Part shown: positions 7,704 through 20,971 of the stretch, piece after piece
How positions within the stretch are numbered: the first letter of the stretch is position 1
Layout: each line of letters starts with the position of its first letter
Assembly (NCBI RefSeq): GCF_000020025.1
Contig: NC_010628.1
Span: 1,230,001-1,262,000 of the forward strand
Direction of reading: 5' to 3'
Source of the DNA: Nostoc punctiforme PCC 73102
Lineage (GTDB): Bacteria > Cyanobacteriota > Cyanobacteriia > Cyanobacteriales > Nostocaceae
Length of the DNA stretch: 32,000 nt
Translations under genes and position numbers: made by a program
The notes under the pieces: model-generated
The model's input: the letters and a program-made list of their open reading frames with translations, nothing else
Told to the model about the DNA's origin: nothing
The model's database searches: none

Positions 7704-8198
7704 TCATCTCTCCATCCCCCGATTTCTCCATCGAGCGATCGCTCTTAAATATGCTGCAACTGGAATCTGATAAATTTCAATAACAATCCAAACAATAATT
7801 GATAAATGTGATAAAAAAGTCAATACTGTCCAAATATATGGTGTCCAGGTAATGGGTTCCTTGAGGTCAGCAGGAAAATAGTAAGCTACTATGCCAATTA
7901 AAGTAGTGGGAAGAATTACAAAAACTGCTGCCGCTAGTCCATAACCCCAACCTAACTCCACACCTTCTAACTGGCCTTCTGTCCAACTAAACCCATTCCA
8001 ACGCCAAGTTAATGGTGGTTGTCTAGAAGGCATCTTGATTTGCTGTATTTCTAAGTTGACTGTAAAAATCTCTTGACAAAAGTCACAAGCCATAGCTTCC
8101 ATCAATGGCATGTGAGAAATCTTACCTATTCGACAGACTGGGCAGGGGTAAACTCCATAATAGTCGAAAGATTGGGCTAAGATTTTGGAACTGGGCAT
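7704..8198 (-). CDS. Membrane protein with an N-terminal Cys4 zinc ribbon; conserved hypothetical
   Basis: CPVC...CDFC pairs, followed by two long hydrophobic segments. It lies 82 bp upstream of the J-domain gene on the same strand, so they are probably an operon. Confidence 0.6.
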   Translation of the reverse strand: MPSSKILAQSFDYYGVYPCPVCRIGKISHMPLMEAMACDFCQEIFTVNLEIQQIKMPSRQPPLTWRWNGFSWTEGQLEGVELGWGYGLAAAVFVILPTTLIGIVAYYFPADLKEPITWTPYIWTVLTFLSHLSIIVWIVIEIYQIPVAAYLRAIARWRNRGMER

Positions 8199-8362
8199 AA
8201 TGAAACTGATGATCCTAAAAAGTTAATCTGGTCAATGAGGGCTTGGGTCAGAATAATGTATGGCGATCGTCAATTGTCTGCAATCAGCTTTCGCAAGGTG
8301 AAATGATAAGTCAGAAGAATTACAGATGTTTTCTTTTGCATGAAGTACAAAGCTACGGGTTT

Positions 8363-8402
8363 GGAGGCAGGGGGCAGAGGGCAGGGGGCAGGGGACAGGA
8401 GA
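8363..8402. repeat. G-rich short tandem repeat (GCAGGGG-type heptamers)
   Basis: GGAGGCAGGGGGCAGAGGGCAGGGGGCAGGGGACAGGAG. The same repeat type occurs at 11667..11726, 13466..13530, 15788..15810 (reverse complement) and 17025..17050 (reverse complement). Confidence 0.8.
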
Positions 8403-8653
8403 TAGAAACTCTTTGTATCTGGTTTTGAGCCCTTTATTTTGTACCCCATTTAAAAAGCAAACTGGTGTATATGTTTTTAGGAGTTACGCATTCACAGGAA
8501 AGACCAAATATAGATTATTTGAAAAACTACATCTGTCTTAGGGGCAATTGATATAGATGTAAAGCGGCTTAAGGCAGGTTATTTCCCTAGAATGCGGGTC
8601 TTTACTCCTACGGTTGTACTGAGTCTATCGCTTTTTTGTGGTTTATTGGGGTC

Positions 8654-8682
8654 TTGACACTGCCTATTCTTCCTGTTAATGT
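8654..8682 (+). promoter_or_regulatory. Sigma-70-type promoter candidate for the aroF leader
   Basis: TTGACA (8654..8659), 17-nt spacer, TAATGT (8677..8682). This predicts a transcription start near 8689..8691, about 40 nt before leader ORF 1. Confidence 0.4.
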
Positions 8683-8730
8683 TAGCTTAAATAGGTATAT
8701 TTATTAAATTTTCCAGCAAAAGCCCCGCAA

Positions 8731-8787
8731 ATGCTTAAAACAAGTTCCTACTTTTATTTTTGGTTTAAGGTGGTTCACCGGGAGTGA
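8731..8787 (+). CDS. Leader peptide 1, MLKTSSYFYFWFKVVHRE (18 aa, six consecutive aromatic codons)
   Basis: ATG 8731, TGA 8785..8787. Codons 8749..8766 are TAC TTT TAT TTT TGG TTT. The 3' end of the ORF overlaps the 5' arm of an 11-bp stem (8772..8782 with 8811..8821), which abuts and overlaps terminator 1. Confidence 0.5.
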   Translation: MLKTSSYFYFWFKVVHRE

Positions 8788-8817
8788 ATGTAGTTTCCTA
8801 ATGGAAACCGCCCGGTG

Positions 8818-8844
8818 AACCGCAGAGCAAACTCTGCGGTTTTT
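8818..8844 (+). terminator. Intrinsic terminator 1 in the aroF leader
   Basis: AACCGCAGAG (8818..8827), loop CAAA, CTCTGCGGTT (8832..8841), with a T-run at 8840..8844. Its 5' arm shares 4 nt with the 3' arm of the upstream 11-bp stem. Confidence 0.65.
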
Positions 8845-8870
8845 GTTGTTTTAAGGAGAATTTCATCGTC

Positions 8871-8933
8871 ATGACTTATTTAAGTAGCTGGTTTTATGGC
8901 TTTTACTTTTGGCCCAGATTAAATTCCGGGTAA
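8871..8933 (+). CDS. Leader peptide 2, MTYLSSWFYGFYFWPRLNSG (20 aa, 8 aromatic residues)
   Basis: AAGGAG (8853..8858) lies 12 nt upstream of ATG 8871. Codons 8889..8912 are TGG TTT TAT GGC TTT TAC TTT TGG. Stop TAA is at 8931..8933, directly after TTCCGGG (8924..8930), which is complementary to the 5' arm of terminator 2. Confidence 0.6.
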   Translation: MTYLSSWFYGFYFWPRLNSG

Positions 8934-8961
8934 GTAGCGTCATGTCGATGAATCAGAACGC

Positions 8962-8994
8962 GCCCGGAACTCTTCAAAGGTTCCGGGCTTTTTT
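8962..8994 (+). terminator. Intrinsic terminator 2 in the aroF leader
   Basis: GCCCGGAAC (8962..8970), 9-nt loop, GTTCCGGGC (8980..8988), then TTTTTT (8989..8994). It lies 78 nt upstream of the aroF ATG. Confidence 0.75.
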
Positions 8995-9072
8995 GTTATC
9001 ACTGGCGACTGGAAAAGAACTCTTACCTTAATACCTAATACTCAATCCATAACTTTTTAGGAAAATGAAACC

Positions 9073-9945
9073 ATGATTAATGCTAAACTTGCCGCACAAT
9101 CTCATCCGAATCACCAGACAATCGTTAAAATCTCAGAAAAAGTCGCTTTCGGAGGCGAAGAACTGGTAATTATCGGCGGCCCCTGTACCGTTGAAAGCTT
9201 AGAACAAATGGAGATTGTCGCCCAAAAGCTATCTACTGCATCGATACAGGGGTTGCGTGGCGGTGTCTACAAACCTCGCACATCTCCCTACGCTTTCCAG
9301 GGTATGGGTGAGGAAGGATTGAGGATTTTGGCAAGGGTGCGATCGCATTACAATATGCCAGTTGTCACTGAGGTGATGTCAATTTCTCAAATTGAAGTAG
9401 TCGCCGCCCATGCTGATATGCTTCAAGTTGGCAGTCGTAATATGCAAAACTTCGACTTGCTCAAAGCTTTGGGACAAGCTGGTAAACCAATATTACTCAA
9501 ACGTGGTTTAGCAGCGACTATTGAAGAATTTGTCATGGCTGCTGAATATATTCTTAGCCACGGGAATCCTGATGTGGTGTTGTGCGAAAGAGGTATCCGC
9601 AGCTTCGATGATTACACCCGCAATGTCCTAGATTTAGCAGCAGTGGCAGCACTCAAGCAAATAACTCACCTGCCTGTGATTGTAGATCCTTCCCATGCTG
9701 TCGGTAAACGGGAACTGGTAGCACCTGTGGCTAGGGCTGCGATCGCTTGCGGTGCTGATGGATTAATTATTGAATGTCACCCACAACCAGAAAAATCTGT
9801 TTCTGATGCCCGTCAAGCACTCTCTTTAGAAGATATGGTGCGTTTAGTTGATAGTTTAAAGCCTGTAGCAAAAGCCGTTGGGCGCAATATATCATCAAAT
9901 GTCGGGGCGGGTTTATCACCTGCCCCAATTTTTTATGCTGCTTAA
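9073..9945 (+). CDS. aroF: 3-deoxy-7-phosphoheptulonate (DAHP) synthase, type I-beta
   Basis: LVIIGGPCTVES, GGVYKPRTSPYAFQG, LQVGSRNMQNF, LLKRG and VDPSHA motifs are typical of Bacillus/Thermotoga-type DAHP synthases (KDO8P-synthase-like fold). Length is 290 aa. Confidence 0.85.
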   Translation: MINAKLAAQSHPNHQTIVKISEKVAFGGEELVIIGGPCTVESLEQMEIVAQKLSTASIQGLRGGVYKPRTSPYAFQGMGEEGLRILARVRSHYNMPVVTEVMSISQIEVVAAHADMLQVGSRNMQNFDLLKALGQAGKPILLKRGLAATIEEFVMAAEYILSHGNPDVVLCERGIRSFDDYTRNVLDLAAVAALKQITHLPVIVDPSHAVGKRELVAPVARAAIACGADGLIIECHPQPEKSVSDARQALSLEDMVRLVDSLKPVAKAVGRNISSNVGAGLSPAPIFYAA

Positions 9946-10277: not shown

Positions 10278-11729
10278 ATGTGCTTCCCCTTTCCCCAAAT
10301 TGTTAATATGCGCCGTTTAGTTTCTATTCAGACGATAAAGTCTTCGTCCTTGACTGCTCAAACTATTTTTAGCTTTCATAACGTTATTCAAAGAGGACGG
10401 TTTTCATTACTTGTATTAGGTCTAACTTACTTATGTGCTGCCTGTAATGCTTCCGAAGCCCAATCAAGTGGAAAAGAAGCAGGAAAAAAGCGAGCCGTGC
10501 CAGTGGTGGTTGCCACTGCGGCTCAAAAAACTATTCCAGTACAGTTATCGGCTACGGGGACAGTTGAAGCATATTCTACAGTATCTGTCAAATCTCAAGT
10601 TGGTGGGCAACTGACTGGAGTCTATTTTCAGCAAGGACAGAACGTTAAGAAAGGAGACTTGTTATTTAAAATTGATTCTCGCCCTCTACAAGCTGCGCTG
10701 ATGCAAGCTAATGCTGCCAAGGCAAAAGATTTGGCTCAGGTAAAACAGGCACAGGCTAATGTGCTAAAAGCGATCGCTCAAGTGAACCAGGCAAAAGCGA
10801 ATGTCGTGAAGGATAAGTCCCAGGCAACAAATGCAAATGTGCAAGCTCAACGTTATAGTAGTTTGCTCAAGCAAGGGGCAATCAGTAAAGAACAGTCGGA
10901 ACAGTATCAGACTACTGCTGCTGCTCAACAAGCAACGGTAAAGGCAGATCAAGAGGGAGTGGCAAATGCTCAGGCTGCGGTGGCAGCAGCTCAAGCAGAT
11001 GTACAAAATGCTCAGGCGGTGGTACTAGCAGATGAAGCTGCGATCGATAATGCTAAAGTTCAGCTTTCTTATACTTCCATCTACTCACCAATTGCTGGAC
11101 GCACGGGTAGTCTGAAGCTAAATCAAGGCAACTTGGTAGAGGCGAATGCTACCGATCCGCTAATTACAATCAGTCAAATTCACCCGATTTACGTCAACTT
11201 TTCCATTGCCCAGCGATTACTGCCAGATATCAAAAAATACAGTGCTAATAACGGCAAGTTAGAAGTCGATGCTTTACCTCCTAAAGACGCAGGGCGGCCA
11301 GTACGAGGCGAACTTACCTTTGTCGATAGTGGAGTCAATACCCAAACAGGTACGATTCAACTTAAGGGTACTTTTGCCAACAATGACGATCGCCTGTTTC
11401 CGGGACAGTTTGTTAATGTAGTCCTCAAACTGAGCGAAGAACCAAATGCCATTACTGTTCCTTCCCAGGCGGTACAGAGTGGGCAAAAGGGACAATTTGT
11501 GTATGTGGTCAAACCCGACAAAACAGCAGAAATGCGGACAATTACCGTCGGCGACACCGTTGAGAACGAAACGGTAATTAAACAAGGGTTGAAACCAGGT
11601 GAGCAAGTAGTTATTGATGGACAATTCAACCTAGTGCCTGGTGCCACAGTCCAAGTGAAACCGGAGGTAGGAAGCAGGGGGGCAGGGGGCAGAGGGGCAG
11701 GGGGAGGAGGAGCAGGGGGAGAAAGGTAA
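10278..11729 (+). CDS. RND efflux periplasmic adaptor (membrane fusion protein)
   Basis: Lipoyl-like GQNVKKGDLLFKID, a long Ala/Gln coiled-coil hairpin, and SPIAGRTG. It lies immediately upstream of an RND pump. The start is ambiguous (ATG 10278 or 10308). The C-terminal GSRGAGGRGAGGGGAGGER is encoded by a G-rich repeat. Confidence 0.85.
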   Translation: MCFPFPQIVNMRRLVSIQTIKSSSLTAQTIFSFHNVIQRGRFSLLVLGLTYLCAACNASEAQSSGKEAGKKRAVPVVVATAAQKTIPVQLSATGTVEAYSTVSVKSQVGGQLTGVYFQQGQNVKKGDLLFKIDSRPLQAALMQANAAKAKDLAQVKQAQANVLKAIAQVNQAKANVVKDKSQATNANVQAQRYSSLLKQGAISKEQSEQYQTTAAAQQATVKADQEGVANAQAAVAAAQADVQNAQAVVLADEAAIDNAKVQLSYTSIYSPIAGRTGSLKLNQGNLVEANATDPLITISQIHPIYVNFSIAQRLLPDIKKYSANNGKLEVDALPPKDAGRPVRGELTFVDSGVNTQTGTIQLKGTFANNDDRLFPGQFVNVVLKLSEEPNAITVPSQAVQSGQKGQFVYVVKPDKTAEMRTITVGDTVENETVIKQGLKPGEQVVIDGQFNLVPGATVQVKPEVGSRGAGGRGAGGGGAGGER

Positions 11730-11852: not shown

Positions 11853-14800
11853 ATGAACATTTCCGAGCTATTTATCCGGCGACCAATCATGACGACTCTA
11901 GTTATGGTTGGCATTTTGATATTTGGACTGATCAGTTACCAACAGCTACCTGTTAGCGACTTACCCAATGTAGATTATCCAACACTCCAGGTAACAGCTA
12001 ATCTACCCGGAGCTAGCCCAGAAACGATGGCTGCCTCAGTCGCAACTCCTTTAGAGCAGCAGTTTTCGAGCATCGCGGGATTGAGTTCGATGAACTCTAC
12101 CAGTTCTTTGGGTACTACACAGCTGACGCTGCAATTTGACCTGAATCGGGATATTGACGGTGCGGCACAAGATGTCCAGTCTGCGATCGCTAAGGGAGCA
12201 AAACAGTTACCGACAAATATGCCTAATCCGCCATCTTACCGAAAGGTAAATCCGGCGGATCAGCCAGTCCTTTATATCTCCCTCAATTCGTCTATTCTGC
12301 CCCTCTCAACTGTAGATAAGTACGCTGAAACATTGCTGGCACAACGCCTGTCAATGGTGGATGGAGTAGCACAAGTGCAGGTGTTTGGTTCCCAAAAGTA
12401 CGCGGTACGAATTCAGCTTGACCCGGAAGCGCTGAGTGTCAAAGGCATAGGAATCGATGAAGTCGCTGATGCGATCGCTAACGGAAATGTCAATCTGCCT
12501 ACGGGGACACTTTACGGTAAGCAGCAAAATTCTACAATTCAAGCAAACGGTCAACTCAACGATGCCGCCAGCTATCGCTCTCTAAGTGTGGCTTATCAGA
12601 ACGGCGCACCAGTGCAGCTAGGAGAACTAGGTCAAGTTCTGGACAGCGTGGAAAATGACAAGATTGCGAGTTGGTATTTTCCTGTTAAGAAAGAGAGCAG
12701 GGAAGCAGGGGAGAAGTCCCAATCTAAAAATTCTGGGGTGCGGGCGATCGTTTTGGCAATTCAGCGTCAACCGGGAACTAATACTGTTCAAGTAGTAGAT
12801 GCAATCAAGAAACTGTTACCTACCTTTCGGACACAGATTCCGGCGGCTGTGAACATGGATATTCTCTATGATCGCTCCCAATCAATTCGGGAGTCGGTAG
12901 ATGATGTACAATTCACGCTGTTGCTCACCATCGCTCTGGTGGTGCTGGTTATCTTTCTATTTCTCCGCAATATCTCTGCTACTGTTATTCCCAGTTTGGC
13001 AGTACCGCTTTCGATAGTAGCAACCTTTGGAGTCATGGTACTACTGGGTTTCTCCCTCGATAACCTATCACTGATGGCGTTGACCCTTTCAGTAGGTTTC
13101 GTGGTAGATGATGCGGTAGTCATGCTAGAGAATATTGTCCGCCACATGGAAATGGGCGAAAGCCGGATGGAAGCAGCCCTAAATGGTTCTAGAGAGATTG
13201 GTTTCACAATTTTATCTATGACCATCTCTCTGGTAGCAGTATTCATCCCAATCCTTTTCATGGAAGGCATTTTGGGGCGACTGTTTCGGGAGTTTGCCGT
13301 TACTATTAGCGTTGCAATCTTGGTATCTGGCGTAATTTCCCTCAGCTTGACACCAATGCTGTGTTCCAGATTCTTGAGTCCACCTCATCATGAGCAGGAG
13401 AGTGAGGGGGATGAGGAGCATACTTCTCTACGAGAGGCTGTGCCAACGACTACGCTCAGTAACCGGGGGAGCAGGGGAGCAGGGGAGCAGGGGAGTAGGG
13501 GAGATGAGGAGCAGGGGAGAGAGGGAGAAATTCTTAACTCCGAGTCCCATTCGACTACGCTCACGGCAAGCCCAGCACCTAGTCTCCAGTCCCGAATCAA
13601 AAACTTTAACCGTCGTCTCTACAACTTTTCGGAAAACGTTTTTAATGTGATATTGGGCGGATACGATTGGAGTTTGAAGAAATCACTCAAGTATCACCGC
13701 ACGACGATGGTGATTTCGGGAGCGATTCTTGTAGCGACAGTGTATCTATTTATCATTGTGCCTAAAGGATTTGTTCCCAACGCAGATGTTGGACAAATTA
13801 CGGCAACAACTCAGGCATCAGAGGATATATCCTTTGATGAGATGGTAAAACATCAACAAGCTGTAGCTGCGATCGCTTATCGCGATCCTAATGTTGATTC
13901 CATCAACTCCAGTGTTGGGGCTGGTGGCCCAAATGCTTCCGCCAACGCGGGACGGCTTTTAATTGAACTCAAGCCCCGCGATGAGCGCCGTCTCAGTGCT
14001 GATGAAGTTGTCCAGGAACTCCGGCCTAAGCTGTCAGGTGTACCCGGAATCAAGGTTTTCTTGCAAAATCCCCCAGCGATTAATGTGGGTGGACAACAGA
14101 CAAAAGCACAGTATCAATTTACTCTGCAAAGTCCTAATATTCAGGAACTTTACCAATACGCTCCAGCTTTAGAAGAGAAATTGCGATCGCTCTCAGATTT
14201 ACAAGATGTTAACAGCGATTTGCAAATCAAGAATCCGCAAGTAAAAGTAGACATCAACCGCGACCAAGCTTCAGCTCTAGGTTTGACCGCCAATCAAATC
14301 GAAACTGCTTTGAGTAATGCTTATGGTACTCGCCAAGTTTCTACCATCTACGCCCCCGATAGCCAATACCAAGTAATTATGGGCGTGGAACCAAAATATC
14401 AGCAAAATGCCAACGCCCTAGATTTACTCTCAGTTCGTGCCCCTAGTGGACAACTTGTACCTCTCAATGCCGTAGCAACCTTGAGCAAAGATGTAGGCCC
14501 CTTAACTATCAACCATAAAGGGCAACTGGCATCTGTCACCTTCTCCTTTAACCTGAAGCCAGGGGTGTCACTAGGTAACGTCACTGGGAAAATTGAGGAA
14601 CTTGCCCGCCAAACACTGCCACCTACTATTAGTACAGGCTTCCAAGGTTCAGCGCAAGCATTTCAATCTTCAATTCAGGGTTTAGGACTGCTACTGCTGG
14701 TTGCCATCTTGGTGATTTATATCGTGTTGGGAATTCTCTACGAGAACTTCATTCACCCGTTAACAATCCTTTCTAGCTTACCTTCTGCTGGATTTGGAGC

Positions 14801-15200
14801 AATACTGACCCTGTTGCTGTTTCAAGTTGACTTGAATATTTACGCTTTCGTCGGCATCATTCTGCTAGTTGGCATTGTGAAGAAAAACGGAATTATGATG
14901 GTTGACTTTGCGATCGTTGCCCGTCACAACGGCAAAACCCCTTATGATGCTATCTATGAAGCCTGCTTGGTGAGATTTCGTCCAATTATGATGACGACAA
15001 TGGCAGCACTCATGGGAACTTTACCAATTGCCCTCGGTTTGGGAGCCGGAGCAGATACACGTCGTCCCCTTGGTTTAGCAGTAGTTGGGGGGTTAGTATT
15101 CTCGCAGTTCCTCACACTTTATTTAACACCCGTTTTCTACACCTACATGGAGTCTTGGCAAACCAAGATGAAAAAACGTAACTGGCGCAAACAGCCTTGA
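11853..15200 (+). CDS. RND efflux permease (AcrB/MdtB/MdtC-like)
   Basis: 1115 aa with 12-TM RND architecture. N-terminal MNISELFIRRPIMTT and the TM4 proton-relay GFVVDDAVVMLENI. It contains an extra acidic/Gly-rich segment of about 55 aa after TM6, encoded by a dispersed repeat. Confidence 0.9.
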   Translation: MNISELFIRRPIMTTLVMVGILIFGLISYQQLPVSDLPNVDYPTLQVTANLPGASPETMAASVATPLEQQFSSIAGLSSMNSTSSLGTTQLTLQFDLNRDIDGAAQDVQSAIAKGAKQLPTNMPNPPSYRKVNPADQPVLYISLNSSILPLSTVDKYAETLLAQRLSMVDGVAQVQVFGSQKYAVRIQLDPEALSVKGIGIDEVADAIANGNVNLPTGTLYGKQQNSTIQANGQLNDAASYRSLSVAYQNGAPVQLGELGQVLDSVENDKIASWYFPVKKESREAGEKSQSKNSGVRAIVLAIQRQPGTNTVQVVDAIKKLLPTFRTQIPAAVNMDILYDRSQSIRESVDDVQFTLLLTIALVVLVIFLFLRNISATVIPSLAVPLSIVATFGVMVLLGFSLDNLSLMALTLSVGFVVDDAVVMLENIVRHMEMGESRMEAALNGSREIGFTILSMTISLVAVFIPILFMEGILGRLFREFAVTISVAILVSGVISLSLTPMLCSRFLSPPHHEQESEGDEEHTSLREAVPTTTLSNRGSRGAGEQGSRGDEEQGREGEILNSESHSTTLTASPAPSLQSRIKNFNRRLYNFSENVFNVILGGYDWSLKKSLKYHRTTMVISGAILVATVYLFIIVPKGFVPNADVGQITATTQASEDISFDEMVKHQQAVAAIAYRDPNVDSINSSVGAGGPNASANAGRLLIELKPRDERRLSADEVVQELRPKLSGVPGIKVFLQNPPAINVGGQQTKAQYQFTLQSPNIQELYQYAPALEEKLRSLSDLQDVNSDLQIKNPQVKVDINRDQASALGLTANQIETALSNAYGTRQVSTIYAPDSQYQVIMGVEPKYQQNANALDLLSVRAPSGQLVPLNAVATLSKDVGPLTINHKGQLASVTFSFNLKPGVSLGNVTGKIEELARQTLPPTISTGFQGSAQAFQSSIQGLGLLLLVAILVIYIVLGILYENFIHPLTILSSLPSAGFGAILTLLLFQVDLNIYAFVGIILLVGIVKKNGIMMVDFAIVARHNGKTPYDAIYEACLVRFRPIMMTTMAALMGTLPIALGLGAGADTRRPLGLAVVGGLVFSQFLTLYLTPVFYTYMESWQTKMKKRNWRKQP
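13393..13590 (+). repeat. Dispersed repeat element embedded in-frame in the RND pump gene (approximate borders)
   Basis: GGAGCATACTTCTCTACGAGAGGCTG (13415..13440) and ACGACTACGCTCAGTAACCGGGGGAGCAGGGGA (13446..13478), followed by 8-nt G-rich repeats. They match the reverse complement of 17021..17146. Confidence 0.75.
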
Positions 15201-19474: not shown

Positions 19475-20971
19475 ATGAAATCTAGTTTTAAACAGTTAAA
19501 CTTATTTGAAGCAGAACTGACTCATACAAATCCTCAAACAATAGTATTACCAAAAGGCTACAAAGGATTAGCTGCTTTTCATAAATATTGGGGGAAGAAA
19601 CCAATTGAACCCCTAGCATTTCTAATTGAAAATTTAACAAAAAAAGGTGACATAGTTTTAGATCCTTTTTTAGGATCAGGTTTAGTAGCTCGTGAAGCAG
19701 CAATTAGGCAAAGACGGTTTATAGGTATTGATATTAATCCTATAGCAATAGAATTATCGAATTTACTAATTGGTTTACCAAGTCCAAATATTTTAAAAGA
19801 AGCAATTGATGAATTAGAAAGAAGTGTTAAGTCAGAAATTTATAAAACTTACTTACTAGAAGATGGAAAATTTGCAACTCACTATTTATGGAATGGGAAT
19901 AAACTAAATTCAGTCTGGCAGTTATCACAAAAAATGAATAAAAATGATAAAAGGTTGCCAACTAACTATGACTATCAACTATTGAAAGAATTTGAAGCAT
20001 ATCAACCTCAAATACCTCGTCCAATTAAGTTTTTTAAAAATAGCCGAATAAATACAAATGATTCTTTAACACTGAAAGATTTATTCACTGGTCGCGCATT
20101 ACATAATATAGATTTACTACTTGATGCAATTCATAAACAACCAGATACAATCAAATCTGCATTATTGCTCTCATTAACATCTGCTTCAGGTCAAATGTCT
20201 AATATGGTTTTTGCAATTACAGGAAGAGGTAAAACAAAATCTCAGCCAACAAATAAAATAGAAGTTGGTAGTTGGGTTATAGGATATTGGAGACCAACAC
20301 TACATTTTGAAATCAATGTTTGGAATTGTTTTATTAAACGTGCAAATAGATTATTAAAATCCATTCAAGAAGATGAATTTGAAAAATGTTATCAGGTATC
20401 TAAAAGAGTAGAAGATGTTATTTATAACAAAGCTGAAGTAGCGATTATTCAAGGTGATAATCGAAAAATTCTCAATAATTGCCCTGATGGAACTATTTCA
20501 CTTGTATTAACCGATCCTCCACATAGTGATAGGATTCCATACTTAGAATTGAGTGAAATGTGGAATTCTTTAATAGATAAAAAGTCAGATTTTTCTCATG
20601 AAATTGTAGTCTCTAATGCCCGTATTCGATTAAAGGATAAAAAACTTTATCTTCATGAAATGACTGAATTTATGCAGACTGCTACGCGTATACTTAAGCC
20701 TAGTGGGATATTAGCTCTATTTTTTAATGCTAGAGATGCTGCTAGTTGGAAGTTTTTACAAGAAGTAATACCATCTTCAGATAAATTGCAATTTCAGGGA
20801 TTATTCCCAATGAATTATTCAGCAAATTCAGTAGTGCAAGATAACAGAAAAGGAGGTTTAAAAAATGATTTTGTTTTAATATATCAAAAACCTGGAAATG
20901 AAGATAAAATAAAATTGGAATTTTTAAAAAATTTACCTAATTGGTCTAAAGAAATACCTAATATTAGCTAA
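19475..20971 (+). CDS. DNA methyltransferase (N6-adenine or N4-cytosine type)
   Basis: HKYWGKKP, then 19 residues, then the AdoMet motif I DPFLGSG (19661..19681) and RRFIGIDINP. The catalytic motif IV LVLTDPPH is at 20513..20524. The gene is very AT-rich. Confidence 0.8.
   Translation: MKSSFKQLNLFEAELTHTNPQTIVLPKGYKGLAAFHKYWGKKPIEPLAFLIENLTKKGDIVLDPFLGSGLVAREAAIRQRRFIGIDINPIAIELSNLLIGLPSPNILKEAIDELERSVKSEIYKTYLLEDGKFATHYLWNGNKLNSVWQLSQKMNKNDKRLPTNYDYQLLKEFEAYQPQIPRPIKFFKNSRINTNDSLTLKDLFTGRALHNIDLLLDAIHKQPDTIKSALLLSLTSASGQMSNMVFAITGRGKTKSQPTNKIEVGSWVIGYWRPTLHFEINVWNCFIKRANRLLKSIQEDEFEKCYQVSKRVEDVIYNKAEVAIIQGDNRKILNNCPDGTISLVLTDPPHSDRIPYLELSEMWNSLIDKKSDFSHEIVVSNARIRLKDKKLYLHEMTEFMQTATRILKPSGILALFFNARDAASWKFLQEVIPSSDKLQFQGLFPMNYSANSVVQDNRKGGLKNDFVLIYQKPGNEDKIKLEFLKNLPNWSKEIPNIS

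What the first reader, a model, noticed from the sequence alone, without database searches (positions are those of the whole stretch)
8654..9072. Two tandem aromatic-codon leader peptides with terminators upstream of DAHP synthase: candidate ribosome-mediated attenuators
Between a good promoter candidate (TTGACA, 17 nt, TAATGT) and aroF there are two short ORFs. Neither is in the ORF track.

The ORFs:
- 8731..8787 encodes MLKTSSYFYFWFKVVHRE.
- 8871..8933 encodes MTYLSSWFYGFYFWPRLNSG and has an AAGGAG Shine-Dalgarno.
- Each carries a dense run mixing Tyr, Phe and Trp codons. These are the three end products of the pathway whose first enzyme is encoded immediately downstream.
- Each is followed by a canonical hairpin plus U-run terminator (8818..8844 and 8962..8994).

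Unit 2 has textbook attenuator logic:
- TTCCGGG (8924..8930) ends directly at the stop codon. It is identical to part of the 3' terminator arm (8981..8987), and both are complementary to CCCGGAA (8963..8969).
- A ribosome that reaches the stop would mask segment 2 and let the terminator form.
- A ribosome stalled on the aromatic codons would leave segment 2 free to form an antiterminator.

Unit 1 is less clean:
- The end of the ORF overlaps the 5' arm of an 11-bp perfect stem (8772..8782 with 8811..8821).
- The 3' arm of that stem shares 4 nt with the terminator stem, so mutual exclusivity is only partial.

Context: mixed-codon leaders resemble the multivalent thr and ilv attenuators of enterobacteria. 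Tandem units resemble tandem riboswitches. As far as I know, leader-peptide attenuation is documented mainly in Proteobacteria and some Actinobacteria, and I am not aware of a described case at cyanobacterial aroF. That claim needs a literature and Rfam check.
Basis: partly seen in the sequence, partly recalled or inferred. Interest (0 to 1): 0.85.

Follow-up and report, generated by a model that had tools for sequence, protein, structure and literature searches.

The report
Tandem aromatic leader-peptide attenuators before aroF
Two short Tyr/Phe/Trp-rich reading frames, each followed by a terminator and a competing hairpin, lie ahead of the first gene of aromatic amino acid synthesis in many cyanobacteria; they look like classic ribosome-sensing attenuators, a mechanism I found no report of in this phylum.

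Summary

- **Anatomy.** Both sORFs, both hairpin-plus-U terminators and the competing pairings are at the stated coordinates. They lie upstream of a type I-beta DAHP synthase gene.
- **Conservation.** The same two-unit leader sits upstream of that gene in essentially every related locus with enough upstream sequence: 78 of 80 genome loci plus 5 more. These span Nostocales, Microcoleus, Coleofasciculaceae, Floridaenema, Leptolyngbyaceae and Waterburya.
- **Coding signal.** Aromatic positions change only synonymously or to another aromatic codon. The Trp codon is fixed 8 (unit 1) or 7 (unit 2) codons before the stop.
- **Structure support.**
  - The unit 1 antiterminator is 13 bp and shares 7 nt with its terminator. 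It shows compensatory changes.
  - Unit 2 has a covarying pairing between its start region and the post-stop spacer. This gives it a trp-like four-segment layout.
  - The unit 2 antiterminator itself is almost invariant, so covariation cannot test it.
- **Modelling.** A ribosome at the stop abolishes each antiterminator in every locus. A ribosome stalled on most upstream aromatic codons allows it.
- **Novelty.** There is no Rfam, Pfam or NCBIfam match, and I found no report from cyanobacteria. The closest precedent is the Corynebacterium glutamicum aroR-aroF attenuator.

Verdict: a new, tandem member of the leader-peptide attenuator kind, not yet tested experimentally.

The parts
8654..8682 (+). 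Promoter candidate: -35 TTGACA (8654..8659), 17-nt spacer, extended -10 TGT-TAATGT (8674..8682). The inferred transcription start is near 8689..8691.
   Evidence: Read from the sequence. A TTGAC[A/G/T] box, a 16-18 nt spacer (17 or 18 nt in the loci listed) and TAnnnT lie about 77 nt before the sORF1 start in 74 of 78 loci. The consensus scan did not call it. The transcription start is inferred, not shown.
8731..8787 (+). Leader ORF 1 (18 codons plus TGA), MLKTSSYFYFWFKVVHRE. Regulatory codons Tyr-Phe-Tyr-Phe-Trp-Phe lie at 8749..8766.
   Evidence: Present in 78 loci. The aromatic positions change only synonymously or to another aromatic codon, and Trp is fixed 8 codons before the stop in 53 of 55 distinct sequences.
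8770..8823 (+). Antiterminator 1: 13-bp stem 8770..8782 with 8811..8823, enclosing the hairpin 8793..8798 with 8803..8808. The 5' arm is the last five sense codons of sORF1.
   Evidence: It is the MFE structure at -30.9 kcal/mol. Cells are 92.8% paired, 4 pairs show compensatory changes, and 0 of 500 shuffles reach the observed covariation score.
8817..8849 (+). Intrinsic terminator 1: stem 8817..8827 with 8832..8842, then a U-rich tract to 8849. It shares 8817..8823 with antiterminator 1.
   Evidence: 96% paired; an A-U to G-C double change in 5 loci; -17.2 kcal/mol.
8853..8858 (+). Shine-Dalgarno AAGGAG of leader ORF 2. It follows the U tract of terminator 1 almost directly, leaving no room for a separate promoter between terminator 1 and sORF2.
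   Evidence: It is conserved in most Nostocales rows of alignment A2.
8871..8933 (+). Leader ORF 2 (20 codons plus TAA), MTYLSSWFYGFYFWPRLNSG. Regulatory codons Trp-Phe-Tyr-Gly-Phe-Tyr-Phe-Trp lie at 8889..8912.
   Evidence: The start is ATG or GTG across loci. Trp is fixed 7 codons before the stop in 65 of 70 distinct sequences.
8862..8952 (+). Long-range pairing in unit 2: the start region 8862..8881 (includes the AUG) pairs with the post-stop spacer 8932..8952. It crosses antiterminator 2, so the two exclude each other. It acts as an anti-antiterminator, like the trp 1:2 pairing.
   Evidence: MFE structure. On the alignment, 81 cells have changes on both sides against 42 in shuffles, and 0 of 500 shuffles reach that. 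Without an alignment, the cognate duplex averages -16.3 kcal/mol against -8.0 for a shuffled spacer. Nostoc and Microcoleus each prefer their own partner: -17.8 and -18.1 against -7.8 and -9.7.
8924..8969 (+). Antiterminator 2: 8924..8931 (TTCCGGGT, the last two sense codons plus the first base of the stop) pairs with 8962..8969.
   Evidence: Sequence. It is 95% paired across 77 loci but nearly invariant. The only double change is in L066, where the matching change also appears in the terminator's 3' arm. With its inner structure it scores -17.3 kcal/mol.
8962..8994 (+). Intrinsic terminator 2: stem 8962..8971 with 8979..8988, then TTTTTT.
   Evidence: 95.7% paired; the closing pair switches G-C to A-U in 28 loci; 0 of 500 shuffles reach the score; -17.5 kcal/mol.
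9073..9945 (+). Regulated gene: type I-beta 3-deoxy-7-phosphoheptulonate (DAHP) synthase, 290 aa.
   Evidence: NCBIfam NF006421 at 404 bits (cut-off 335) and TIGR01361 at 364 bits.

Best explanation
This is a pair of ribosome-mediated (leader-peptide) transcription attenuators in series. Together they set how many transcripts started at one promoter near 8654..8682 reach the DAHP synthase gene.

Unit 1.
- When charged aromatic tRNAs are plentiful, the ribosome translating sORF1 runs to the UGA stop.
- There it covers 8770..8782, the 5' arm of antiterminator 1.
- Terminator 1 (8817..8842) then folds and RNA polymerase stops at the U tract.
- When Tyr- or Phe-tRNA is scarce, the ribosome stalls on the Tyr-Phe-Tyr-Phe codons and leaves 8770..8782 free.
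- The 13-bp antiterminator forms, takes 7 nt of the terminator's 5' arm, and polymerase reads on.

Unit 2 repeats the decision with four segments.
- Segment 1 is the start region.
- Segment 2 is TTCCGGG plus the post-stop spacer.
- Segment 3 is CCCGGAAC.
- Segment 4 is GTTCCGGG followed by the U tract.
- Without translation, segments 1 and 2 pair and the terminator forms.
- A ribosome at the stop masks TTCCGGG and the terminator forms.
- A ribosome stalled on the Trp/Phe/Tyr codons frees TTCCGGG to pair with segment 3, and polymerase reads through.

Expression of the gene is therefore the product of two read-through probabilities. It rises when any of the pathway's three amino acid end products runs short.

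Shown here: the anatomy, its conservation, the coding signal, covariation in antiterminator 1, both terminators and the unit 2 long-range pairing, and the thermodynamic plausibility of the switch.

Inferred: the transcription start, that the sORFs are translated, that polymerase terminates at these sites, and the response to amino acid supply.
For: 1. Position and conservation.
- Both units lie upstream of the DAHP synthase orthologue on the same strand in 78 of 80 genome loci. The other two lack upstream sequence.
- They are also present in the PCC 7120-type locus L081 and in four more distant loci, including Waterburya.

2. Coding signal.
- Aromatic positions vary only TAC/TAT, TTT/TTC or Phe/Tyr.
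- TGG is fixed 8 or 7 codons before the stop.
- The N-terminal parts vary freely.
- The indels seen inside the ORFs are multiples of 3.

3. The conserved C-terminal residues (VVHRE, SSG) are the 5' arms of the antiterminators. In unit 1 they covary with their 3' partners: A-U to G-C in 13 loci, G-C to C-G in 13, C-G to U-A in 3.

4. Terminators are called by the scan and are 96% paired, with double changes.

5. A base shared by antiterminator 1 and terminator 1 (alignment column 108) changes A to G in 5 loci. It then forms U-G in one structure and G-C in the other.

6. The unit 2 long-range pairing covaries between clades.

7. Footprint-constrained folding of the transcript just before the terminator's 3' arm emerges.
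- Antiterminator 1 has probability 0 with a ribosome at the stop.
- It is about 1.0 with a stall at each of the first three aromatic codons, and 0.77 at the fourth (medians over 77 loci).
- Antiterminator 2 has probability 0 at the stop in all 76 loci.
- Its median is 0.9 to 1.0 for stalls.

8. Geometry.
- The distance from the stop to the terminator's 5' arm is 29-31 nt in 75 of 78 loci and 27-31 nt in 70 of 77.
- The distance to the DAHP synthase start ranges from 72 to 661 nt. That fits transcriptional rather than translational control.

9. The Shine-Dalgarno of unit 2 follows the U tract of terminator 1 almost directly. Unit 2 can therefore only be transcribed by read-through of unit 1.

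10. A precedent exists for the logic: the C. glutamicum aroR leader (Phe-Tyr-Phe) attenuates aroF (PMC11802643).
Against: - There are no experimental data of any kind.
- Antiterminator 2 is almost invariant, so covariation neither supports nor refutes it. Only one lineage, L066, shows a double change.
- At equilibrium, with the whole unit 2 transcript present, terminator 2 wins whatever the ribosome position. The switch has to be kinetic, as it is for trp.
- In the window itself, modelled stalls at some unit 2 codons (2nd, 3rd, 6th, 7th) do not give the antiterminator.
- In unit 1 the best-conserved codon, Trp, and the Phe after it lie so close to the antiterminator arm that a ribosome stalled there should mask it (probabilities 0.38 and 0). 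Its conservation is not explained by the model.
- sORF1 has no Shine-Dalgarno.
- Untranslated unit 1 RNA is predicted to read through, not terminate.
- Two Calothrix loci (L079, L080) lack the usual sORF2 stop, and the ORF runs into terminator 2.
- The PCC 7120-type locus L081 and L034 have no ATG for sORF1 and one mismatch in antiterminator 1.
- One comparative paper found no reliable evidence of attenuation in cyanobacteria as of 2016 (PMC4833913). I know of no evidence on whether transcription and translation are coupled in this phylum.
Confidence: 0.8

Rival explanations
1. The sORFs encode nascent arrest peptides that sense free aromatic amino acids or a pathway intermediate in the ribosome exit tunnel, as TnaC does. 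Stalling at or near the stop codon, rather than tRNA-limited stalling at aromatic codons, would control the terminators.
For: The tails are strongly conserved: FYFWPR..SSG-stop and FWF.VVHRE-stop. The Trp sits at a fixed distance from the stop. The model of the main explanation does not account for the conserved Trp of unit 1.
Against: - RNA pairing explains the conserved tails. Their nucleotides covary with the 3' arm.
- Pro-Arg in unit 2 is replaced by Pro-Asn-Lys or Pro-His in Microcoleus.
- A ribosome arrested at the stop would mask the antiterminator and cause termination. That is the same output as normal termination, so nothing would be gained.
- TnaC acts through Rho (my own recollection), which cyanobacteria lack (PMC12642595).
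Confidence: 0.06
2. The region is an RNA-only sensor (a riboswitch or protein-binding leader). The terminators respond to a ligand or a protein, and the aromatic codons are incidental or serve only to load ribosomes.
For: The structure is highly conserved with alternative pairings. There is no Shine-Dalgarno before sORF1.
Against: - Substitutions at the aromatic positions preserve the amino acid class, not the nucleotides.
- The start and stop codons are conserved in position, and the indels seen inside the ORFs keep the frame.
- There is no conserved unpaired pocket or junction of the kind ligand-binding domains have.
- No Rfam family matched, including the T-box.
Confidence: 0.04
3. The two units are independent small genes that happen to sit next to aroF. 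They would be either small hydrophobic peptides with a function of their own or small RNAs ending at their own terminators.
For: Terminated leader transcripts of about 155 and 305 nt would look like small RNAs. A study of heterocystous cyanobacteria predicted many conserved terminator-ended small RNAs, one with a conserved small peptide (PMC4734099).
Against: - Linkage to the DAHP synthase gene, on the same strand, is invariant across several orders.
- There is no room for a promoter between terminator 1 and the unit 2 Shine-Dalgarno.
- The peptides are conserved only in the aromatic run and the RNA-constrained tail.
- The peptide-coding small RNA of that study (ncl0160) is a different locus. 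Its probe primers are absent from the PCC 7120-type locus L081.
- A secondary trans-acting role of the terminated leaders is not excluded.
Confidence: 0.05
4. It is a translation-dependent attenuator that reports general translation capacity or transcription-translation coupling, not aromatic amino acid supply specifically.
For: Any slowing of the leading ribosome would favour the antiterminators.
Against: In both units and all lineages, the run consists of codons for exactly the three end products of the pathway this gene opens. Substitutions stay within the aromatic class. Chance expectation for such sORFs is low.
Confidence: 0.05

Closest known systems
Corynebacterium glutamicum aroR-aroF attenuator (Neshat et al. 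2014, as summarised in PMC11802643)
   Same: A leader peptide with mixed aromatic codons (Phe-Tyr-Phe) lies upstream of the operon containing the DAHP synthase gene. Transcription increases when the ribosome stalls at those codons.
   Different: - That system is in a different phylum (Actinobacteria).
- Only one leader peptide gene (aroR) is described there.
- The cyanobacterial leaders carry 6 to 8 aromatic codons each, including Trp, and come as two units in series.
- I did not have the C. glutamicum sequence, so homology was not tested. Independent origin is likely.
Enterobacterial trp, pheA, pheST, his, thr and ilv leader-peptide attenuators (Rfam Trp_leader, Phe_leader, His_leader, Thr_leader, Leu_leader)
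   Same: - A short ORF is rich in codons for the end product.
- A terminator competes with an antiterminator.
- The antiterminator's 5' arm lies at the ORF's end.
- Unit 2 also has a 1:2-type pairing that gives default termination.
- Mixed codons resemble the multivalent thr and ilv leaders.
   Different: - No sequence or structure match to any Rfam family.
- In E. coli the DAHP synthase genes are controlled by repressors that bind upstream of them together with aromatic amino acids, not by attenuation.
- Two attenuators in series.
- Unit 1 lacks a 1:2 pairing and is predicted to read through when untranslated.
uORFC-13-1 motif upstream of aroF in Acholeplasma (PMC8632094)
   Same: It is a predicted uORF with Phe codons followed by an intrinsic terminator, upstream of the DAHP synthase gene. 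It is a comparative prediction without experiments.
   Different: It is found only in Acholeplasma and environmental sequences. It has a run of U coding at least one Phe, not mixed aromatic codons, and is a single unit. Sequence similarity was not tested.
Tandem riboswitches and tandem T-boxes (from my own knowledge, e.g. the Bacillus thrZ leader)
   Same: Cis-regulatory terminator switches are arranged in series, so total read-through is the product of the individual decisions.
   Different: Those sense ligands or uncharged tRNA directly through RNA. Here the sensor is the translating ribosome. I know of no described tandem leader-peptide attenuator. This rests on memory and was not checked exhaustively.

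Membership tests
Ribosome-mediated (leader-peptide) transcription attenuators | A short ORF with a start codon in the 5' leader of a biosynthetic gene, on the same strand | tested here: met
   sORF1 is 8731..8787 and sORF2 is 8871..8933, upstream of the DAHP synthase gene at 9073. Both are conserved with ATG or GTG starts in 78 of 80 loci.
Ribosome-mediated (leader-peptide) transcription attenuators | The ORF is enriched in codons for the pathway's end-product amino acid(s), and selection acts on codon identity | tested here: met
   There are 6 of 8 and 7 of 8 aromatic codons. The window has 3 such sORFs against 0.32 expected. Substitutions are synonymous or aromatic-to-aromatic.
Ribosome-mediated (leader-peptide) transcription attenuators | An intrinsic terminator between the leader ORF and the structural gene | tested here: met
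   Sites at 8817..8842 and 8962..8988, each with a T run. They are 96% paired across loci, with double changes.
Ribosome-mediated (leader-peptide) transcription attenuators | An antiterminator that excludes the terminator, with its 5' arm placed so that a ribosome at the stop masks it and a ribosome at the regulatory codons does not | tested here: met
   Unit 1 has a 13-bp stem sharing 7 nt with the terminator, with compensatory changes. Unit 2 has a pairing of 8-9 bp (7 Watson-Crick pairs plus a G-U in the window) that is conserved but nearly invariant. Footprint-constrained folding gives antiterminator probability 0 at the stop in all loci and a high probability for upstream stalls.
Ribosome-mediated (leader-peptide) transcription attenuators | Read-through depends on translation of the leader and on the supply of the cognate charged tRNA | not testable with these tools
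   This needs reporter fusions, 3'-end mapping and starvation experiments.
Rfam leader families (Trp_leader, Phe_leader, His_leader, Thr_leader, Leu_leader) | A match to the family covariance model | tested here: not met
   cmscan of 8200..9300 at E up to 10 returned only two chance matches, ctRNA_p42d and C0719.
T-box leaders | A specifier loop and the conserved T-box antiterminator sequence (Rfam T-box model) | tested here: not met
   No T-box match in the same scan.
TnaC-type arrest-peptide control | A peptide sequence conserved independently of RNA structure, and Rho-dependent termination downstream | tested here: not met
   RNA pairing with covariation accounts for the conservation of the tails. 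The terminators are intrinsic. Cyanobacteria lack Rho (PMC12642595). That TnaC acts through Rho is my own recollection.
C. glutamicum aroR-type leader | Sequence homology to the aroR leader | not tested
Only the functional description was read.
Annotated leader-peptide protein families (NCBIfam, Pfam) | A match to a curated leader-peptide model | tested here: not met
   No family at E up to 10 for five variants of the peptides. Nine peptide variants are absent from a collection of 15 billion proteins.

The most novel reading that the evidence does not exclude
The two units are not redundant copies but a two-stage device with different defaults and specificities.

- Unit 1 has no 1:2 pairing, and its antiterminator is far more stable than its terminator. 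It would read through unless a ribosome reaches the stop, and would respond mainly to Tyr and Phe.
- Unit 2 is trp-like and off by default. It would add the Trp response and shut off untranslated transcripts.

If so, this is a composite attenuator architecture not described before. Its conservation across several cyanobacterial orders would show that the leading ribosome closely follows RNA polymerase in a phylum that lacks Rho. The abundant terminated leaders of about 155 and 305 nt might also act in trans.
Probability: 0.25. Interest if true: 0.8.

Novelty: new member of a known kind. Interest (0 to 1): 0.66.

Why it matters
- **First case in the phylum.** It would be the first leader-peptide attenuator documented in cyanobacteria. 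A comparative study stated that there were no reliable data for attenuation there (PMC4833913).
- **Coupling becomes testable.** This mechanism works only if a ribosome follows RNA polymerase within a few tens of nucleotides. The element therefore offers a direct, natural test of transcription-translation coupling in a Rho-less phylum whose termination mechanisms are poorly understood (PMC12642595).
- **Pathway control.** It gives a concrete proposal for how entry into the shikimate pathway is controlled at the level of gene expression in cyanobacteria.
- **A compact part.** It is a small (about 300 nt) aromatic-amino-acid-responsive element that could be used in engineered strains.
- **Annotation.** It explains a conserved unannotated region. 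It may also account for small RNAs seen in transcriptomes upstream of this gene.

Tried and rejected
- **Rfam.** A permissive scan found nothing relevant.
- **Promoter scan.** Conservation rescued it.
- **RNAalifold.** On the MAFFT alignments it returned only the terminators and small local hairpins, not the antiterminators. I therefore named the structures myself and counted pairs.
- **Equilibrium folding of complete units with ribosome footprints.**
  - For unit 2 the terminator always wins.
  - For unit 1 the measure saturates near 0.5, because only the lower half of the stem competes.
  - I replaced this with folding of the transcript truncated before the terminator's 3' arm.
- **ncl0160.** I considered that the element might be the conserved peptide-coding small RNA ncl0160 of Brenes-Alvarez et al. 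2016. I rejected this because its Northern primers match none of the 80 genome loci nor the PCC 7120-type locus L081, and its peptide is 23-25 aa.
- **Small RNA table.** I could not map the PCC 7120 chromosome coordinates, so I could not check that paper's table of predicted small RNAs for this leader.
- **Protein families.** Pfam, NCBIfam and exact look-ups of the peptides gave nothing.
- **Relationship of the two units.** A pairwise alignment gives only weak collinear similarity (z = 3.3). An ancient duplication is plausible but not shown.
- **Not done.** I did not build a covariance model.
Full report
**What is in the window.**

The region 8199..9072 lies between a leftward gene (7704..8198, a 164-aa protein with no family match) and a rightward gene (9073..9945). 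The rightward gene is a type I-beta DAHP synthase: NCBIfam NF006421 at 404 bits against a cut-off of 335, and TIGR01361 at 364 bits.

- TTGACA lies at 8654..8659, then 17 nt, then TAATGT at 8677..8682. The hexamer is preceded by TGT, which makes it an extended -10.
- sORF1 is 8731..8787 (MLKTSSYFYFWFKVVHRE).
- AAGGAG lies at 8853..8858.
- sORF2 is 8871..8933 (MTYLSSWFYGFYFWPRLNSG).
- The terminator scan calls hairpin-plus-T-run sites at 8817..8842 and 8962..8988.

The stretch folds much better than shuffles: z = -4.2, -6.1 and -5.2 for unit 1, unit 2 and the whole leader.

Aromatic sORFs of this density are rare. There are three in 64 kb of both strands against 0.32 expected, and two of them are these.

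**Conservation.**

A scan of one genome per species with the DAHP synthase protein returned 80 loci at 77-99% protein identity. They come from Nostoc, other Nostocales, Microcoleus, Coleofasciculus, Floridaenema, Aerosakkonema, Potamolinea and Leptolyngbyaceae.
- In 78 of them both sORFs are found upstream of the gene. The other two have less than 105 nt of upstream sequence.
- The consensus peptides are M-x4-5-S-Y-F-Y-F-W-F-[RK]-V-V-H-R-E and M-T-x-F-x-S-W-F-Y-G-F-Y-F-W-P-R-x-S-S-G.
- Where sORF2 has no ATG, a GTG lies in the same place.
- Five further loci, fetched through more distant DAHP synthase proteins, also carry both units. They include the PCC 7120-type locus and a Waterburya genome.
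- A -35 box TTGAC[A/G/T], a 16-18 nt spacer (17 or 18 nt in the loci listed) and TAnnnT sit about 77 nt before the sORF1 start in 74 of 78 loci.
- The Shine-Dalgarno of unit 2 follows the U tract of terminator 1 almost directly, so unit 2 can only be reached by read-through of unit 1.

**Evidence that the sORFs are read as codons.**
- At the aromatic positions, variation is TAC/TAT, TTT/TTC or Phe/Tyr.
- TGG is present in 53 of 55 (unit 1) and 65 of 70 (unit 2) distinct sequences.
- The Trp codon sits exactly 8 and 7 codons before the stop.
- The N-terminal parts vary in sequence and length.
- The indels seen inside the ORFs are multiples of three, for example in L027, L039, L042 and L049.
- The position after Trp in unit 1 is the least conserved aromatic position: Phe 32, Tyr 9, Arg 6, His 4.

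**Alternative RNA structures.**

Unit 1:
- The last five sense codons (GTG GTT CAC CGG GAG) are the 5' arm of a 13-bp stem, 8770..8782 with 8811..8823. The stem encloses a 6-bp hairpin.
- Its 3' arm shares 8817..8823 with the 5' arm of terminator 1.
- The antiterminator scores -30.9 kcal/mol and the terminator -17.2. What remains of the terminator when the antiterminator is formed scores -1.6.
- On the 78-sequence alignment the 13-bp stem is 92.8% paired. Four pairs show changes on both sides: A-U to G-C in 13 loci, G-C to C-G in 13, C-G to U-A in 3, G-C to A-U in 2. None of 500 column shuffles reaches the observed covariation score, and slid registers drop to 25-50% paired.
- One base belongs to both structures. 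It changes A to G in five loci, giving U-G in the antiterminator and G-C in the terminator, together with a U-to-C change on the terminator's 3' arm.

Unit 2:
- TTCCGGGT (8924..8931), the last two sense codons plus the first base of the stop, pairs with 8962..8969. That segment is the 5' arm of terminator 2.
- This pairing is 95% intact but almost invariant, so covariation says nothing about it.
- The only double change, in L066, is matched by the corresponding change in the terminator's 3' arm.
- Terminator 2 is well supported. Its closing pair switches G-C to A-U in 28 loci.

- The start region 8862..8881, including the AUG, pairs with the spacer just after the stop, 8932..8952.
- This pairing crosses antiterminator 2, so the two exclude each other.
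- It covaries. 81 cells have changes on both sides against 42 in shuffles.
- Without relying on an alignment, the cognate duplex averages -16.3 kcal/mol against -8.0 with a shuffled spacer.
- Nostoc and Microcoleus start regions prefer their own spacers (-17.8 and -18.1) over each other's (-7.8 and -9.7), although the sequences are quite different.
- Unit 2 therefore has the four-segment layout of the trp attenuator.

**Does ribosome position flip the structures?**

I folded each unit with a 28-nt stretch held unpaired, from 15 nt before to 12 nt after the first base of the A-site codon.

With the complete transcript at equilibrium the test is uninformative.
- In unit 2 the terminator always wins.
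- In unit 1 only the lower half of the stem competes.

With the transcript cut just before the terminator's 3' arm emerges, which is the moment of decision, the result is clear.

| Ribosome position | Antiterminator 1 (outer 7 bp), median of 77 loci | Antiterminator 2, median of 76 loci |
|---|---|---|
| No ribosome | 0.99 | 0.42 (window 0.00) |
| At the stop codon | 0 | 0 (in every locus) |
| Stalled at aromatic codons | Tyr 1.0, Phe 1.0, Tyr 1.0, Phe 0.77, Trp 0.38, Phe 0 | 0.9 to 1.0 |

- In the window, the long-range pairing wins when no ribosome is present on unit 2.
- In the window, individual unit 2 codons vary from 0 to 0.88.

Geometry is conserved inside the units and free outside them.
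- The distance from the stop to the terminator's 5' arm is 29-31 nt in 75 of 78 loci (unit 1) and 27-31 nt in 70 of 77 loci (unit 2).
- The distance from the sORF2 stop to the DAHP synthase start ranges from 72 to 661 nt.
- This argues for control of transcription, not of translation initiation of the gene.

**Most likely mechanism.**

These are two leader-peptide attenuators in series.
- With ample charged Tyr-, Phe- and Trp-tRNA, the ribosome reaches each stop, masks the 5' arm of the antiterminator, and the terminator forms.
- When one of these tRNAs is scarce, the ribosome stalls upstream and the antiterminator forms. Polymerase then continues.
- Read-through to the DAHP synthase gene is the product of the two decisions.

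I put this at 0.8. The transcription start, translation of the sORFs, termination at the two sites and the response to amino acids are all inferred.

Points that do not fit neatly:
- The conserved Trp codon of unit 1 lies too close to the antiterminator arm to work in the model.
- sORF1 has no Shine-Dalgarno.
- Untranslated unit 1 is predicted to read through.
- Two Calothrix loci have an sORF2 that runs into terminator 2.
- The PCC 7120-type locus L081 and L034 lack an ATG for sORF1 and have one mismatch in antiterminator 1.

**Rivals.**

None of the following explains the whole pattern as well. The reasons are given under the rival explanations.
- A TnaC-like arrest peptide.
- An RNA-only sensor.
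- Independent small genes.
- A general sensor of translation.

**Comparison with what is known.**
- No Rfam family matches.
- No Pfam or NCBIfam model matches the peptides, and the peptides are absent from a 15-billion-protein collection.
- The closest functional precedent is the C. glutamicum aroR leader (Phe-Tyr-Phe) before aroF (PMC11802643).
- A predicted Phe uORF before aroF exists in Acholeplasma (PMC8632094).
- For cyanobacteria, seven full-text searches found no description of leader-peptide attenuation or of these peptides.
- A 2016 comparative paper states that there are no reliable data on attenuation in cyanobacteria (PMC4833913).
- The conserved peptide-coding small RNA ncl0160 of heterocystous cyanobacteria is a different locus.
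- The library does not hold most subscription journals, so an earlier report cannot be excluded.

**Verdict.**

It is a new, tandem member of a well-known kind of regulator, in a phylum where I found no report of that kind. It has a useful implication for transcription-translation coupling. Interest 0.66.

Noticed in passing
window 8366..8399, 11674..11719, 13466..13529: There are short tandem G-rich repeats with periods of 7-8 nt (GGCAGGG, GGGGGCA, GGGGAGCA). One lies in the intergenic region upstream of the leader. Two lie inside ORFs: the 3' end of the 483-aa ORF at 10278..11729, and the 1115-aa ORF at 11853..15200. In the ORFs they encode Gly/Arg/Ala/Glu-rich stretches. From memory, they resemble the short tandemly repeated sequences of heterocystous cyanobacteria.
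   Followed up: partly
window 9904..9926: A terminator-like hairpin (GGGGCGGG...CCTGCCCC, followed by a T-rich tail, AATTTTTTAT) lies inside the last 40 nt of the DAHP synthase ORF. The gene's likely terminator therefore overlaps its C-terminal codons, and the gene looks monocistronic.
   Followed up: no
L079:2810-2960 and L080:2795-2960: In two Calothrix genomes, sORF2 lacks the usual stop after TCC GGG. In L079 the ORF ends at a TAG in the loop of terminator 2; in L080 it runs on through the terminator into the U tract. A ribosome finishing these ORFs should melt the terminator rather than allow it. This is either a variant logic or decay of unit 2.
   Followed up: partly
L081:2590-2720 (PCC 7120-type locus) and L034: sORF1 has no ATG in these loci. 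In L081 a GTG is in frame. Antiterminator 1 carries one mismatch (CACGGGG or CACAGGG opposite CCCAGTG). Unit 1 may be weakened in this lineage, while unit 2 is intact.
   Followed up: partly
L036, L061, L055, L052, L053 (between the units); L045 and others (between unit 2 and the gene): The spacing between the two stop codons is 142-150 nt in most Nostocales and 170 nt in Microcoleus. It is 199-380 nt in a few loci. The spacer between unit 2 and the DAHP synthase start reaches 661 nt. This suggests insertions that leave the units themselves untouched.
   Followed up: no
window 8772..8790: A local hairpin, GGTTCAC with GTGAAT(G), spans the end of sORF1 and its TGA stop. RNAalifold picks it as conserved. 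It competes with the 5' arm of antiterminator 1 and could be a pause or anti-antiterminator element, but it is much weaker than the antiterminator.
   Followed up: partly
window 7704..8198 (- strand): The divergently transcribed 164-aa ORF has CxxC motifs and hydrophobic stretches and matches no NCBIfam family. A 164-aa gene sits in the same position in the PCC 7120-type locus L081.
   Followed up: no
window about 19830..19961 (- strand): This is the only other aromatic-rich sORF in the window (44 aa, TTG start, 6 of 8 aromatic). It lies antisense to a 498-aa ORF and is probably a chance ORF.
   Followed up: no
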